A DNA stretch of 64,000 bases, from NCBI GenBank assembly GCA_964016885.1, contig OZ024742.1:282224001-282288000 (forward strand), read 5' to 3'. The position numbers were made by a program, and so were the translations under genes. Under the pieces are notes generated by a model. That model was not told the origin of the DNA. It saw nothing but the letters and a program-made list of their open reading frames with translations, and made no database searches. Origin of the DNA: Eledone cirrhosa (taxonomy: Eukaryota). Positions 12,638-38,500 of this stretch are shown here, in pieces. The first letter of the stretch is position 1. The number at the start of each line of letters is the position of its first letter.

Positions 12638-12832
12638 TAGGAACGAGTAGGACCCCGACGGCTGAGCTCAAGCCGTTTCGACGGCTAATTCTGGATCCAG
12701 AATTAGCCGTCGAAACGGCTTGAGCTCAGCCGTCGGGGTCTTACTCGTTCCTATTACCCACTCTACTACCCTAAGTATTGAGTACTTTGGTGCGTTATGG
12801 TCCACCTGGTTCCTTACCACATTTCCTTCGTT
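12638..12832 (+). mobile_element. Family X PLE-like fragment with a 116-bp palindrome
   Basis: Palindrome at 12638-12753 centred on GGA|TCC contains the 3' half of the family X HHR (GAAA-cggct..agccg-TC-ggggt); flanked by (TA)n. Confidence 0.75.
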
Positions 12833-13337
12833 ATATATATATATATATGCGTGTGTGTGTGTGTGTAATTAGGAAAATTAACAAAGGAAGACAACAAAAG
12901 AAAAGAAAACAAAACGAAAATAATTTTTTGAAGGGGAAGCCTTAAAAAATTCTTTTGGAAGTAAAAAGACAAACGAAAGATACAGAACTCCAAGGCCTTC
13001 AGCCGTCGGGATGGACTTTCGCAGTTTCGGCCCCCTACCGACATTACTGATGATCCACGCGAGTTCACAGTTTCAGATACAATCCAAAGCGCTTCCGTAG
13101 AGTAAAAGACAAGACAACAATAACGAGATGACAATGATGATGATGATGATGATGATGATGATGATGATGATGATGATGATAAGGTTGGTGGTAGGAATTA
13201 GGAAGGGGGAAGTTTCAGGTGATGATGATGATGATGATGAATAGAGTAAATGAGATGAATAGAAAATAACTTGCGTGGATAGATGGATATATATATATAT
13301 ATATCAATTTTGGGGGTGGGGGAGAAGAAACAATGAA

Positions 13338-13730
13338 GGCGGTGGATTGGCAGAATCGGTAGAGCGTCGGACACCCTGCTGCACGGCAGAGAGTTACGGC
13401 CCTTTATATTCTGAGTTCGAATCCCGCCGAGGTTGACTTTGCCTTTCATCCTTACGGGGTCGATAAAATAAAGTACCAGTAATGCACTGGTTAATTGCAG
13501 GCCATGTGCCTAAAGTAGAAGCAATTATTTGAGAAAACAAAGGACGGTGGATTGGTAGTATCGGTAGAAGGTTGGAGGCCATGCTTTGCAGCATATAGTT
13601 ACGCCCCTTTATAGTCAAATCCAGCCGAGATTCACTTTGCCTTTCATCCTTACGGTGTCGATAAAATAAAAGTACCTGTAATGTACTGGGATAATTGCTG
13701 TCCTTGTGCCAAAAGTAGAAACAATTATTT
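13338..13730 (+). mobile_element. Two tandem SINE family A copies (13338-13530 and 13542-13730)
   Basis: Each copy has head, core and tail; each is followed by gagaaaaca. Confidence 0.85.
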
Positions 13731-13951
13731 GAGAAAACAGTGGATGCGATATATACGATAATGATGATGGTGGTAGAGTTGAAATAGGAATTAATAAAGA
13801 AACAATAGAATAGTATTGATCTTTATATTGTGGTAACGGATGGAGTGAATTAAATGAAACGGTTGTAGATCTCTGCTTGTGGGTAGTGATGGAGGTGGAG
13901 GTGACTATAAGTCTAATAGGTAGAGAGGTGTCTAAAGTATTTAGTAGATAA

Positions 13952-14157
13952 TGGTTTCTTATATAGGCACAAGGCCAGCAACTTGGGAGGAGGGGAAATT
14001 CGGTTAAATCGACCCCAGTGCGTGACTGGTACTTTATTTTACCGACTCCGTAAGGATGAAAGGCAAAGTTAACCTCGGCGAGATTTGAACTCAGATCATA
14101 AAGGGCCGTAACTTTATGCTGCAAAGCATGGTGTCCGACCCTCTACCGATACTGCAA
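13952..14157 (-). mobile_element. SINE family A copy
   Basis: Same core and head sequence on the minus strand. Confidence 0.85.
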
Positions 14158-34482: not shown

Positions 34483-34648
34483 TAATTGTTTCTACTTTTG
34501 GCACAAGGCCAGCAATTATTCAAGTACATTACTGGTACTTTACTATATCGACCCCGTAAGGATGAAAGGCAAAGTTAACCGCAAAAAGACGTAACTCTAT
34601 GCTGCAAAGCATGGCATCCGACTCTCTACTGATACAGTCAATCGACCG
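34483..34648 (-). mobile_element. SINE family A copy, internally deleted
   Basis: Tail, core and head present on the minus strand. Confidence 0.8.
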
Positions 34649-35304
34649 TGAATAATGGATAGAAAAATGGAAACACACAAAACCTAAGGAGACGAAATAA
34701 AGACAGAGTTGTTTAATTCAACGTGTTAAGAAATAGGTTATTGAAAGACACAACAAATGGCTATAGATTAATCAACCACCACTCAAAAGATGCTGATAAA
34801 TTCTCAGCACGGTTAAAAATATTCACAGATAATTTCGGAGTACCCATCTTGCAGTGAGAGCTCAAGAAAATCGGCGTCGGCGGCAGTGGTTGTAGTGGTG
34901 ATGGTGGTGATGCGGGTGCTGGTGGTGGTTGCAGCGACGAAAGCGGCGAAAGTGGCGGCGGTGGCGGTTCTAGTGGTGGGGGGGGGGGAAGAATGTGGTT
35001 GATAGTGAGCACCTACGAACCTTTCTTTGTTGAAGGGGAACAACAACACTGCTTAATGTTGCCAGAAAGTGTCCCTGTTCTCATTTCACACGTCACTGGA
35101 CATCAATTTTATTTAAAATCTATCTATCTATCTCTCCATAGCTCTCTGTCTCTATCTCTATCTCTCTCTATATATAACCATATATATATGTGTGTGTGTG
35201 TGTGTGTAAATATATATATATATATATATATATATATATATAAAAGAGAGAGAGAGAGAGTGAGGGAGAGAGAGAGAGATCTGGCAAACCATTGTCGTCG
35301 TCGT

Positions 35305-35440
35305 AGAAGAAGAAGAAGAAGAAGAAGAAGAAGAAGAAGAAGAAGAAGAAGAAGAAGAAGAAGAAGAAGAAGAAGAAGAAGAAGAAGAAGAAGAAGAAGA
35401 AGAAGAAGAAGAAGAAGAAGAAGAAGAAGAAGAAGAAGAA
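35305..35440. repeat. (AGA)n microsatellite
   Basis: Direct observation. Confidence 0.95.
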
Positions 35441-35592
35441 GCAACAACGGTGTTGGTGGTTGTTTTGGTGTCAGTGATGCTATTGCGCCGATATTAACTT
35501 TGCCTTTCATCCTTACGGGGTCGATAAAATAAAGTACCAGTAATACATTTGGTAATTGCTGGCCTTGTGCCAAAAGTAGAAACAGTTATATA

Positions 35593-38500
35593 TCTATACG
35601 ATAAAGCTGACGGCCGTATGTAAGTAACAAACTTTCCGCCAAGCGGCTGGACCAAACGCTACCAAATTTGCACCATAGATGTCTACTGAACTTTGTTAAA
35701 AGATTAAAGACATTATTTAAATATTCACTTCTTTAAAATTTTCAAATGTCAACACTTCCGGTTATACGACATTCCTAACGTCTTCACGAACCAAAGTAGC
35801 ATCTTCTTGTTTTCTTTCGGTTGAAACGTTTTTCGAAATATTTACTTCTGCGTTCACAGATTGATTTTTTTTAGTTTCAGAAGAATTCGTTAAGGGTGAA
35901 AGCAGCGATTCTTTGCTTAAACTTTAATCTGTTATATATATATATAATTATATATTCGTGTACAGATATTTTTGCATACACAAAAACAAAATATAAACAA
36001 ACGTATTTATTTCACGAAAGCACAGACGGCTTATTGTCATTGTTACTGCCGATATGCCACCCAAAAGGTCCTAGCCTGGCTGCAAGATCAGATTTTCCAG
36101 AAGAAAAAATGTTATAACAAACGTATTTATTTCACGAAAGCACAGACGGCTTATCCTCATTGTTACTGCCGATATGCCACCCAAAAGGTCCTAGCCTGGC
36201 CGCAAGATCAGATTTTCCAGATGAAAAAATGTTACTAGAGTAACATAGGGACTAAGCTTCGCGATTCCCATCAACAAAGCTCAGGGTCAAACACTAAATG
36301 TGGCTGGCCTTCATCTGGGAAAACCATGGTCAATTGTATGTAGGATGCTCTAGGGTGAGCTCGCCAAACAATCTCTTCATCTTTGCTCCCGTGAGCCGAA
36401 CAAGAAATATTGTATACTCTGAGGCTCTAACAATGTAATTTATGTATTTTCTGTTACTTGGAATTTCCAGTATGGTTGTATAGATTATTGTAAAGTTTGT
36501 TAAAATATTTGTTCTCTGTTCAACCTTTATTGTTGTAACTATCAATTTTCTTTCACGTACTGGCTGAGAAAAGAAACCTACAATGAAAGAACATCTTAAA
36601 GTTTACCCAAGCCAAATGTTGTATTTATTAATATTTCTATCTGCAGGTTCTTAGCAAGCTTACTGGCGCTTTAGTATGGTATTCAATTTTCATATCGTTT
36701 TTGATTGATATGGTACATATATCGCAGCTATTCATATGTTTTAAACATTAGATAACGATTGCTGATGTATATTGTACGACAGAATTAGCTGGAAAATATT
36801 TTGAATGAACAAATAAAAGGGATATAAAAGATAGATGTTTGTTGGTTGGTTCCTTCGTGTATTACATGTGACAATCGGAAAGTATGTACAGGATTGGGAT
36901 AAGAGTATATCCAGGAAATTTTATTGATACTAATTTTATAACAACAAAGAAGAAGAAAGACATACCATGTATGCTAACCAACCTGACTGCTATTTCTAGC
37001 AGGTTGGGAATCAACCATAAGGGATTCTCTCTCGAGTTCGTTGTCAGTAATGATCGTGTTTCGCGGCATATGTCTCCGATTCCAACGGTGGTTTACACAC
37101 ACACACACACGCACACACACACACACACACACACACACACACACACACACACACACACACACACACACACACACACACACACACGAACACTCACACAGGC
37201 ACACACACGAACACTCACACAGGCACACACACGAACACTCACACAGGCACACACATATATATATGCACACACATATATATATATATATATATATATATAC
37301 ACACACACACACGTATATATATATATATATATATATACACAAACACACACACATACACACACACATACACACACACAATACACACACACTGTAAACAAGA
37401 CAATGCATTCAATACAGACGTTTTCTCTTCTGCCGGTCTTCTCTTATCATTTGTTAACCCTAGCGAAGCTGGGTATCTCAGCTAGTATATATATATATAT
37501 ATATATATATATATATATATATATATATATATATATATATATATATATATAAAACAGAGAGGGTGTGGTAAGATACCAGGTGGACCATAAGTTCGGATCT
37601 ATCTGTCAAAATAGCCGGAGCTCAGCCGTCGGGGTCCTGACTGTTTTCCTGTCGGCAGCATATCACTAAATCGGATTTCATCTGACAACAACAACATACA
37701 ACATACATGAAGGCTATACGTCATTCCTCACTTTTTCTTATGACGTCGCACAACATTCGCCTCTTTTTCTTAGTCTGTCTTTTTAGATAGATACATAGCT
37801 ATAGGGGTAGCGCCCTTATAATATGTCTCTGTATGTCTGACTCTGCATTAGTTAATGTTTTTCGAAATATTTACTTCTGCGTTCACACACTGATCTTTTT
37901 AGTTAAGGGTGAAAGCAGCGATTCTTTGCTTAAACTTTAATGTTATTTTAATATATATATTCGTGTACAGATATTTTGCCATACACAAAAACTAAAACCT
38001 ATTTATTTCACGAAAGCACAGACGGCTTATCGTCATTATTACTGTTCGAGGTTAGAGGACCACAGTCTTTCCAAGATCTGAGAACCATCAATGGCCATCA
38101 ATGCTCCTCTTACCGTTTGGCTTGCCAGATGCGTGTTATGTTACACGATGACAGCCATTGGCACCTCACCCTGCAAGAAGCAGCAACTGCTAAAGTCCCT
38201 TCTCAGCTGCGAAAACCTTTTGCTCTTAAGCTGCACAACTGCGATCTCGCTGACCCTCTCGCAATGTGAAACAACCACCGCGAAAGTCTAGCTGAAGACA
38301 TCCTCCACCACACACGCAGACACATTCCGAACGTAACATACGATGTCGTTTTCAATGAAGCGCTCATTTGTCTTGAAAACAGTGTCCTGGAGATTGGTGG
38401 TAGGCCTCTAAGTCACTACAGCTTACCTGCTCCTGACAGGAGTGTCCAGAGGTCAACGTCTACAGAGCTTCTCCGCGAGCCGAGCTACGAGATCAGTGCT

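What the first reader, a model, noticed from the sequence alone, without database searches (positions are those of the whole stretch)
12638..37650. Family X: six insertions that share one 3' tail but fold back at different points in or around the ribozyme
Copies lie at 12638, 18013, 20740, 22422, 32359 and 37555. Most end in ...tggtcca(c/t)ctgg..accac next to (TA)n. The 5' side is an inverted copy whose turning point falls upstream of the HHR (18013), in the stem II loop (12695, 22478) or just after the GUC site (32373). The outer end of the inverted arm is nearly constant, about 15-20 nt past the cleavage site (..ttccta). Inference: a stereotyped insertion mechanism (fold-back or twin priming with a fixed second start) generates genomic palindromes.
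Basis: partly seen in the sequence, partly recalled or inferred. Interest (0 to 1): 0.75.

Follow-up and report, generated by a model that had tools for sequence, protein, structure and literature searches.

The report
Penelope stubs record RNA 5' ends
The six hairpin-like inserts are short, head-to-head stubs of a very abundant Penelope-type jumping gene, and the places where they turn round likely mark the front end of the RNA that was copied (a predicted start site or, less often, a predicted ribozyme cut), which would help explain how this class of element builds its mirror-image ends.

Summary
Real, and a known architecture. The six copies are 5'-truncated insertions of a Hydra-clade Penelope-like retroelement (PLE). 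The autonomous partner was found: a 3,531-bp unit with an intact RT + GIY-YIG frame. At least 23,151 exact tail matches exist. One arm ends at +61 (56 of 61 inverted arms), the other at +137, so the tail is 76 nt. An inverted copy plus one-sided tail is published for PLEs. The turning points are not scattered. Both arms mostly stop at one initiator-like site (+1) in loop II. A second class stops at the predicted hammerhead cut: 302 insertions, against 7 and 11 at upstream controls and 97 downstream. Mixed +1/cut junctions number 64, against about 1,378 expected if arms stopped independently. Likely mechanism: both ends of a cut TA repeat prime on one RNA at two fixed sites, run to its 5' end, and are joined. 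Simple fold-back fits less well. No RNA data tested this. The scan reached similar readings before for other families in this genome.

The parts
12637..12695 (-). Copy 1, short arm (+3 to +61), ends in (TA)n
   Evidence: 95-98% to the plus arm and to the autonomous unit
12696..12830 (+). Copy 1, long arm (+3 to +137): 3' half of the hammerhead-like motif (GUC at 12732-12734) and 76-nt tail (12755-12830), followed by (TA)n
18012..18190 (-). Copy 2 (older subfamily), short arm reaching upstream of the whole hammerhead-like motif
   Evidence: self-comparison, 90.5% over 179 nt
18620..18871 (+). Copy 2, long arm with whole hammerhead-like motif (about 18687-18782; core UUGAAGA; +1 at 18736; GUC 18774-18776) and tail
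20742..20811 (-). Copy 3, tail arm (+68 to +137)
20814..20839 (+). Copy 3, short arm (+36 to +61); does not overlap the tail arm
22420..22473 (-). Copy 4, short arm (from about +6)
22476..22602 (+). Copy 4, long arm with a 12-nt deletion at the start of the tail
32358..32370 (-). Copy 5, short arm (+49 to +61)
   Evidence: one of 97 junctions of this class
32371..32464 (+). Copy 5, long arm (+44 to +137), joined at a 5-nt near-palindrome just past the predicted cut
37556..37590 (-). Copy 6, tail-only arm (from +100), decayed
37605..37650 (+). Copy 6, decayed short arm after a 14-nt spacer; not followed by (TA)n

Best explanation
These are short head-to-head insertions of a Hydra-clade Penelope-like retrotransposon, likely made when both ends of a cut TA repeat prime reverse transcription on one element RNA at two fixed internal sites and both copies run to that RNA's 5' end and are joined. 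Shown: the family belongs to a 3,531-bp RT + GIY-YIG element; outer ends are fixed at +61 and +137 and nearly always pair one of each; inner ends pile up at +1 and at +42; the two arms of an insertion stop together and share subfamily bases; junctions differ from site to site. Inferred: +61 and +137/+141 are RT start sites using a 3-4 nt TAT match to the target; +1 is the transcription start; +42 is the hammerhead cut; joining is end-joining with untemplated bases. Because the start sites lie about 60 and 137 nt after the RNA start and before the ORF (ATG at +232), a transcript beginning at +1 would give a stub. Long copies would come from RNAs that read through into a downstream repeat.
For: Partner and clade; Hydra motifs from PMC8557442 section 11. 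Fixed ends: 56 of 61; one end at +61 and one at +137 in 14 of 19 hand-picked long loci; loose ends at +61 and +141 running into TA in a DNA-like run. One-of-each pairing: 46 of 53 short-arm-anchored hits had a tail partner, 0 a second short arm, 7 none seen or long. Pile-up at +1: both arms within -5..+8 in 37 of 60; motif +6..+26 32,539 versus motif spanning -7..+14 4,774; depth about 15-25-fold higher over +1..+137 than just upstream. Cut site: 302 versus 7, 11 and 97; 41 of 50 listed junctions have both arms ending exactly at G+42. Coupling: mixed class 64 versus about 1,378; 10 of 15 long arms had a long partner and 1 of 15 a partner at +1 (read by eye); subfamily sites discordant in 2 of 89 and 3 of 90 versus about 51 and 56 under random pairing. 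Against fold-back: the short arm reaches at least 8 nt further 5' in 15 of 60, 6 of 60 arm pairs do not overlap, and the short-end arm is 0.5 to about 14 kb longer in 5 of 14 long loci. In vitro precedent: two adjacent internal RT starts, both strands extended, predicted dimer (PMC11167929).
Against: The hammerhead core is non-canonical: YUGAGAA in 49 of 65 distinct regex matches (4 of the 65 were palindromes, not full motifs), with a C3/A8 mismatch in 21. Rfam gave no hit and the fold z-score is -0.66. The cut-site class is not enriched in the subfamily linked to the paired U3-A8 core (38:11 versus 34:6, p = 0.43). The downstream control is 97, so the +42 excess is only 3-fold on that side. 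No cap-derived C at +1 (5 of 16). Coupled ends and shared bases are also predicted by fold-back, and shared bases also by subfamilies being active at different times. Rare variants shared by both arms were few (3 versus 125 private). 31 of 92 tail hits had no adjacent inverted arm found. Samples are the first hits along one contig, not random draws.
Confidence: 0.7

Rival explanations
1. Fold-back: one cDNA primed at the tail end folds on itself (or the RNA self-primes, as proposed in PMC3846280) and is copied back to a fixed stop or endonuclease cut at +61.
For: Explains one-of-each pairing, coupled inner ends and shared bases. 22 of 84 junctions near +1 show overlap (microhomology).
Against: The copied arm should lie within the first arm, yet the short arm reaches further 5' in 15 of 60 and does not overlap the tail arm in 6 of 60, and is kilobases longer in several long loci. 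14 of 50 cut-site junctions and 24 of 84 near +1 have no spacer to form a loop. Later deletion of palindrome centres could rescue the model for some cases.
Confidence: 0.15
2. Twin priming on two separate RNA molecules held by an RT dimer.
For: Avoids two enzymes copying the same stretch of one RNA. A dimer is predicted for a related protein (PMC11167929).
Against: Mixed +1/+42 junctions are about 20-fold rarer than independence predicts; long arms pair with long arms; no short+short pairs in 53.
Confidence: 0.08
3. The pile-ups at +1 and +42 are places where RT stalls at RNA structure (base of stem III, loop II) and are not RNA 5' ends.
For: +42 lies at the 3' foot of stem III; the ribozyme core is atypical.
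Against: Independent stalls would make mixed junctions commoner than double stops; the reverse is seen (64 versus 302). Ends exclude C+41 on both arms in 41 of 50. Joints from ORF positions back to +1 (L169; table 5c) look like jumps off an RNA end. A dimer stalling as one unit is not excluded.
Confidence: 0.1
4. A TIR DNA transposon (MITE) with TA target duplications, or amplification of one palindromic master copy.
For: Inverted repeats in TA-rich sites, tens of thousands of copies.
Against: Arms continue into an RT + GIY-YIG ORF; the tail is on one side only; 66 of 84 junctions are distinct.
Confidence: 0.01

Closest known systems
Endonuclease-bearing Penelope-like element insertion unit: inverted 5'-truncated copy plus one-sided tail (PMC8557442 passages; PMC3846280 passages; PMC2377424 passages)
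   Same: Head-to-head inverted copy, tail on one end only, partial tandems, frequent 5' truncation, AT-rich targets.
   Different: Tail is 76 nt, not 30-40. Most insertions are 60 + 137 nt stubs. Inner ends pile up at two defined sites. PMC3846280 reads such palindromes as self-priming on an antisense template; the counts here favour target priming on sense RNA.
Hydra clade of PLEs, e.g. Hydra-1_Obim, Hydra-2_Amil (PMC8557442 section 11 and supplement hits)
   Same: Single ORF, RW(K/R), DKT, CxCx5C linker, C-terminal GIY-YIG without CCHH, CxxC and CxH around E and N, (TA)n target.
   Different: Unit is 3.5 kb (published ones generally under 3 kb). Hammerhead core is U3/A8 or C3/A8 with a loop II of about 45 nt, not canonical. 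By eye a different family from Hydra-1_Obim; no identity or tree was computed.
PAc, the Poseidon element of the green anole (PMC11167929, main text parts 1-2 of 4)
   Same: Two adjacent internal RT starts that bracket the tail, downstream of a hammerhead; both target strands extended.
   Different: There the starts lie inside the ORF and are said not to match the target; here they precede the ORF and have a TAT match. That paper found no RNA reads ending at the ribozyme cut; here genomic junctions pile up at it.
LINE-1 twin priming (recalled, no call)
   Same: Both target strands prime on one RNA and give an inversion.
   Different: In LINE-1 the second start is variable and the arms do not overlap. 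Here it is fixed and both arms usually copy the same stretch.

Membership tests
EN+ Penelope-like elements | Single ORF with RT and GIY-YIG endonuclease | tested here: met
   717-aa frame from the first Met with YRDDG and VIY...YIG motifs. Pfam gave no hit on this protein; a paralogous ORF in L061 hit GIY-YIG weakly, E 0.012.
EN+ Penelope-like elements | Tandem or partial-tandem units forming pLTRs | tested here: met
   Units at 3,531-bp period, 99.9-100% alike.
EN+ Penelope-like elements | Inverted 5'-truncated copy with tail on one end | tested here: met
   tail is 76 nt.
Hydra clade | RWK-type and DKT motifs; CxCx5C linker; no CCHH; CxxC and CxH around E and N | tested here: met
   RLRWR, SDKTG, CNCPDRSIC, one Cys inside the GIY-YIG core, CNLCSEE, LNK...CKH against section 11.
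Hydra clade | Insertion into (TA)n | tested here: met
Hydra clade | Canonical hammerhead (CUGANGA core) | tested here: not met
   Core is UUGAGAA or CUGAGAA in most full-length motifs. U3/A8 is a described natural active covariation (PMC3088659 section 8); C3/A8 is a mismatch.
Hydra clade | Phylogenetic placement with published Hydra RTs | not tested
   No tree built; likeness judged from motifs and by eye.
Neptune clade (first guess) | CX2-5CxxC linker and CCHH motif in the endonuclease | tested here: not met
   Linker is CxCx5C and CCHH is absent.
Type I hammerhead ribozyme | Three-stem junction with core, GAAA and NUH | tested here: inconclusive
   Minimum-energy fold gives the junction but z = -0.66, and no Rfam hit.
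Type I hammerhead ribozyme | Self-cleavage after C17 | not testable with these tools
   Indirect only: junction excess at G+42.
TIR DNA transposon / MITE | Terminal inverted repeats on both ends around a constant interior, tied to a transposase | tested here: not met
   Interior differs per site, tail on one side, partner is an RT.

The most novel reading that the evidence does not exclude
Penelope stubs are a genomic record of germline RNA 5' ends. One RNA is copied twice by a protein pair starting at two fixed sites, so each palindrome centre maps that RNA's start. Hundreds of centres at the GUC site are then in vivo evidence that a PLE hammerhead with an unusual U3-A8 core and its promoter inside loop II does cleave, and that the cleaved RNA is still used as template.
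Probability: 0.5. Interest if true: 0.65.

Novelty: new member of a known kind. Interest (0 to 1): 0.45.

Why it matters
How PLEs make their inverted ends and tails, and whether their hammerheads cut in vivo, are stated as open in PMC8557442 and PMC11167929. A young family with tens of thousands of independently built junctions lets these be counted: the data favour two-ended priming on one sense RNA over the self-priming model, and point to ribozyme-cut RNA as a real template. The mixed-junction count is a cheap test that carries over to any PLE-rich genome. The architecture itself is not new.

Tried and rejected
Whole-window Rfam scan returned only microsatellite-driven miRNA matches among the 150 of 297 rows shown; the focused scan found no hammerhead. 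The repeat finder was swamped by simple repeats. Pfam and PDB searches did not recognise the ORF. Neptune assignment was dropped after the motif test. RNA search: no RNA holder listed; the runs laid were contigs of unrecorded kind and show no starts. A splice-acceptor reading of +1 was rejected because junction sequences are not constant. A cap signature was not found. Subfamily enrichment at the cut site was not found. The 22 palindromes from the identity-ranked search were left out of the concordance count because one arm was selected to match the query; with them the discordance is 8 of 111 and 6 of 112. First regex for full motifs had wrong spacing (redone in 52; linkage regex in 63, redone in 66). 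No protein homologue, structure or complex job was run. Paper searches listed no paper that maps PLE palindrome centres to the start site or ribozyme cut; only listings were seen for most hits, and subscription papers are not in the library.
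Full report
Observation. All six copies are present. I number the element from the A of AGTCCAG as +1; the predicted hammerhead cut is after C+41. Each copy has a tail-bearing arm ending near +137 and an opposite arm ending at +59 to +61. Copies 20740 and 37555 have arms that do not overlap, so they are inversions without a real palindrome. The window lies in a 3.0-Gb genome rich in simple repeats.

Family size. Exact pattern counts, which are lower bounds: 23,151 for a tail motif, 9,515 for one subfamily's short-arm end joined to TA, 32,539 for +6..+26 and 4,774 for a motif spanning -7..+14. 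Reversed controls were 0. The last two motifs differ in subfamily coverage, so their ratio is approximate.

Autonomous partner. Long copies continue upstream into a GIY-YIG domain. A protein search of the genome returned 150 scored matches, many in open frames of 784 residues. A tandem array gave a 3,531-bp unit, 99.9-100% alike between units, with a 717-aa frame from the first Met at +232. Motifs match the Hydra clade as defined in PMC8557442 section 11, not Neptune, my first guess; an earlier scan note pointed me to Hydra. Pfam and PDB did not recognise the protein. No tree was built.

Outer ends. Of 92 tail hits from the start of contig C1 (first hits, not a random draw), 61 had an adjacent inverted arm; 56 end at +61, one at +144 (tail on both sides), and four aligned to +19, +24, +47 and +64. 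31 had no adjacent arm found; these include simple truncations and long copies whose partner lay out of range. Anchoring on the short arm, 46 of 53 had a tail partner, 0 a second short arm, and 7 none seen or long. In 14 of 19 hand-picked long loci one end is +61 and the other +137. Both ends share TAT or TTAT with the target. Contigs of a public run show loose ends into TA at +61 and +141, and another study's run holds a palindromic record, so this is not an assembly artefact.

Inner ends. Both arms stop within -5..+8 in 37 of 60 palindromes. Among 84 junctions near +1 the commonest end is +1 (34 of 168 arms), apparent ends at -1 to -4 look like untemplated A runs, and 66 junctions are distinct (the pattern only admits spacers up to 40 nt). 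The sequence at +1 is TTAGT or TCAGT, like the insect initiator (consensus recalled). Internal promoters with an initiator are described for D. virilis Penelope (PMC2377424 passages) and suggested for a rotifer element (PMC3846280 passages). Locus L169 and run joints show sequence jumping from +1..+6 to ORF positions, as expected off an RNA end. No cap-derived base was seen.

Ribozyme. The region folds into a type I hammerhead junction with a long loop II that contains +1, but z = -0.66 and Rfam has no hit. The core is UUGAGAA in 28 and CUGAGAA in 21 of 65 distinct matches. U3/A8 is a natural active covariation (PMC3088659 section 8); C3/A8 is a mismatch. With matched 11 + 11 letter patterns and a 0-6 gap, insertions with both arms ending near a site number 1,572 at +4, 7 at +27, 11 at +36, 302 at +42 and 97 at +49. 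Of the 50 listed +42 junctions, 41 end exactly at G+42 on both arms (14 with no spacer, 27 with 1-6 untemplated bases) and 9 keep templated bases. Most +49 junctions listed sit on a 5-nt near-palindrome, as does window copy 32359. Against the ribozyme reading, the +42 class is not enriched in the subfamily linked to U3/A8 (p = 0.43).

One RNA or two. If arms stopped independently, junctions mixing +4 and +42 should number about 1,378; there are 64. Among 100 listed long-arm hits there are 25 head-to-head pairs and 1 tail-to-tail. Of 15 insertions with a long arm and a visible partner, 10 partners were also long, 1 ended at +1 and 4 were shorter (by eye). Arms agree at subfamily sites: 2 of 89 and 3 of 90 discordant against about 51 and 56 under random pairing, with 3.1% background divergence (22 identity-selected copies left out). 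This last test cannot separate one RNA from subfamilies active at different times.

Twin priming or fold-back. Fold-back also couples the arms, but the copied arm cannot exceed the first. The short arm reaches at least 8 nt further in 15 of 60, the tail arm in 7, and 6 pairs do not overlap. In 5 of 14 long loci the +61 arm is longer by 0.5 to about 14 kb. Zero-spacer junctions leave no loop. Later deletion of centres could explain part of this, so fold-back is disfavoured, not excluded.

Model. Inferred: the endonuclease cuts both strands of (TA)n; each 3' end pairs with a short UAU in one RNA at +61 or about +140; both cDNAs run to the RNA's 5' end or stop earlier; untemplated bases are added and the ends are joined. 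RNAs starting at +1 give the common stub, RNAs cut at the ribozyme give the +42 class, and read-through RNAs give long and tandem copies.

Comparison with print. The inverted copy, tail and tandems are described in PMC8557442 (passages, section 11, two supplement searches), PMC3846280 (passages) and PMC2377424 (passages). Two internal RT starts and extension of both strands are shown in vitro in PMC11167929 (parts 1-2 of 4 read; supplements not read and may bear on genomic end mapping). Four searches listed nothing that maps palindrome centres to the start site or ribozyme cut. Earlier unreviewed scan notes reached similar readings for other families in this genome; none matched this sequence.

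Verdict. A real, new family of a known kind. The architecture is published; the junction counts add testable evidence on mechanism. Interest 0.45.

Noticed in passing
L061:567-3093: A second, more distant Hydra-type ORF (RT plus GIY-YIG, in two frames) lies a few kb from a family X copy.
   Followed up: partly
L169:342-1496: One insertion runs from the tail to +2, jumps to ORF position 822 of a second unit, runs to +4 and joins a short arm: an apparent template jump between two RNAs that both begin at +1.
   Followed up: partly
window 2436-2483, 17288-17345, 17873-17921, 24452-24513, 41802-41872: Other hammerhead-core-like motifs from unrelated repeat families.
   Followed up: no
window 15799-15836 and 16740-16777: Identical hammerhead-like motif on opposite strands about 900 nt apart, likely another inverted Penelope-type insertion.
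   Followed up: no
window 44584-46515 and 49519-52586: Two non-LTR retrotransposon copies with endonuclease, RT and C-terminal Cys motifs (L1/Tx1-like by recalled motifs), partly broken.
   Followed up: no
window about 10100-12100: Tandem array with a 37-nt period, about 50 copies.
   Followed up: no
window about 20540-20740: The microsatellite-rich flank left of copy 3 is itself an imperfect inverted repeat.
   Followed up: no
L014 around the central match: A copy without an inverted arm has flank sequence of about 20 nt or more repeated directly on both sides, like a long target duplication.
   Followed up: no
L092, L132, L138 junctions: Recurrent deletion between the 8-nt direct repeats at +12 and +35 in one arm only, suggesting slippage during synthesis of each arm separately.
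   Followed up: partly
L201-L202: An array of more than four near-identical 3,531-bp units made as one arm of a single insertion (about 16 kb), implying a very long or circular template.
   Followed up: partly
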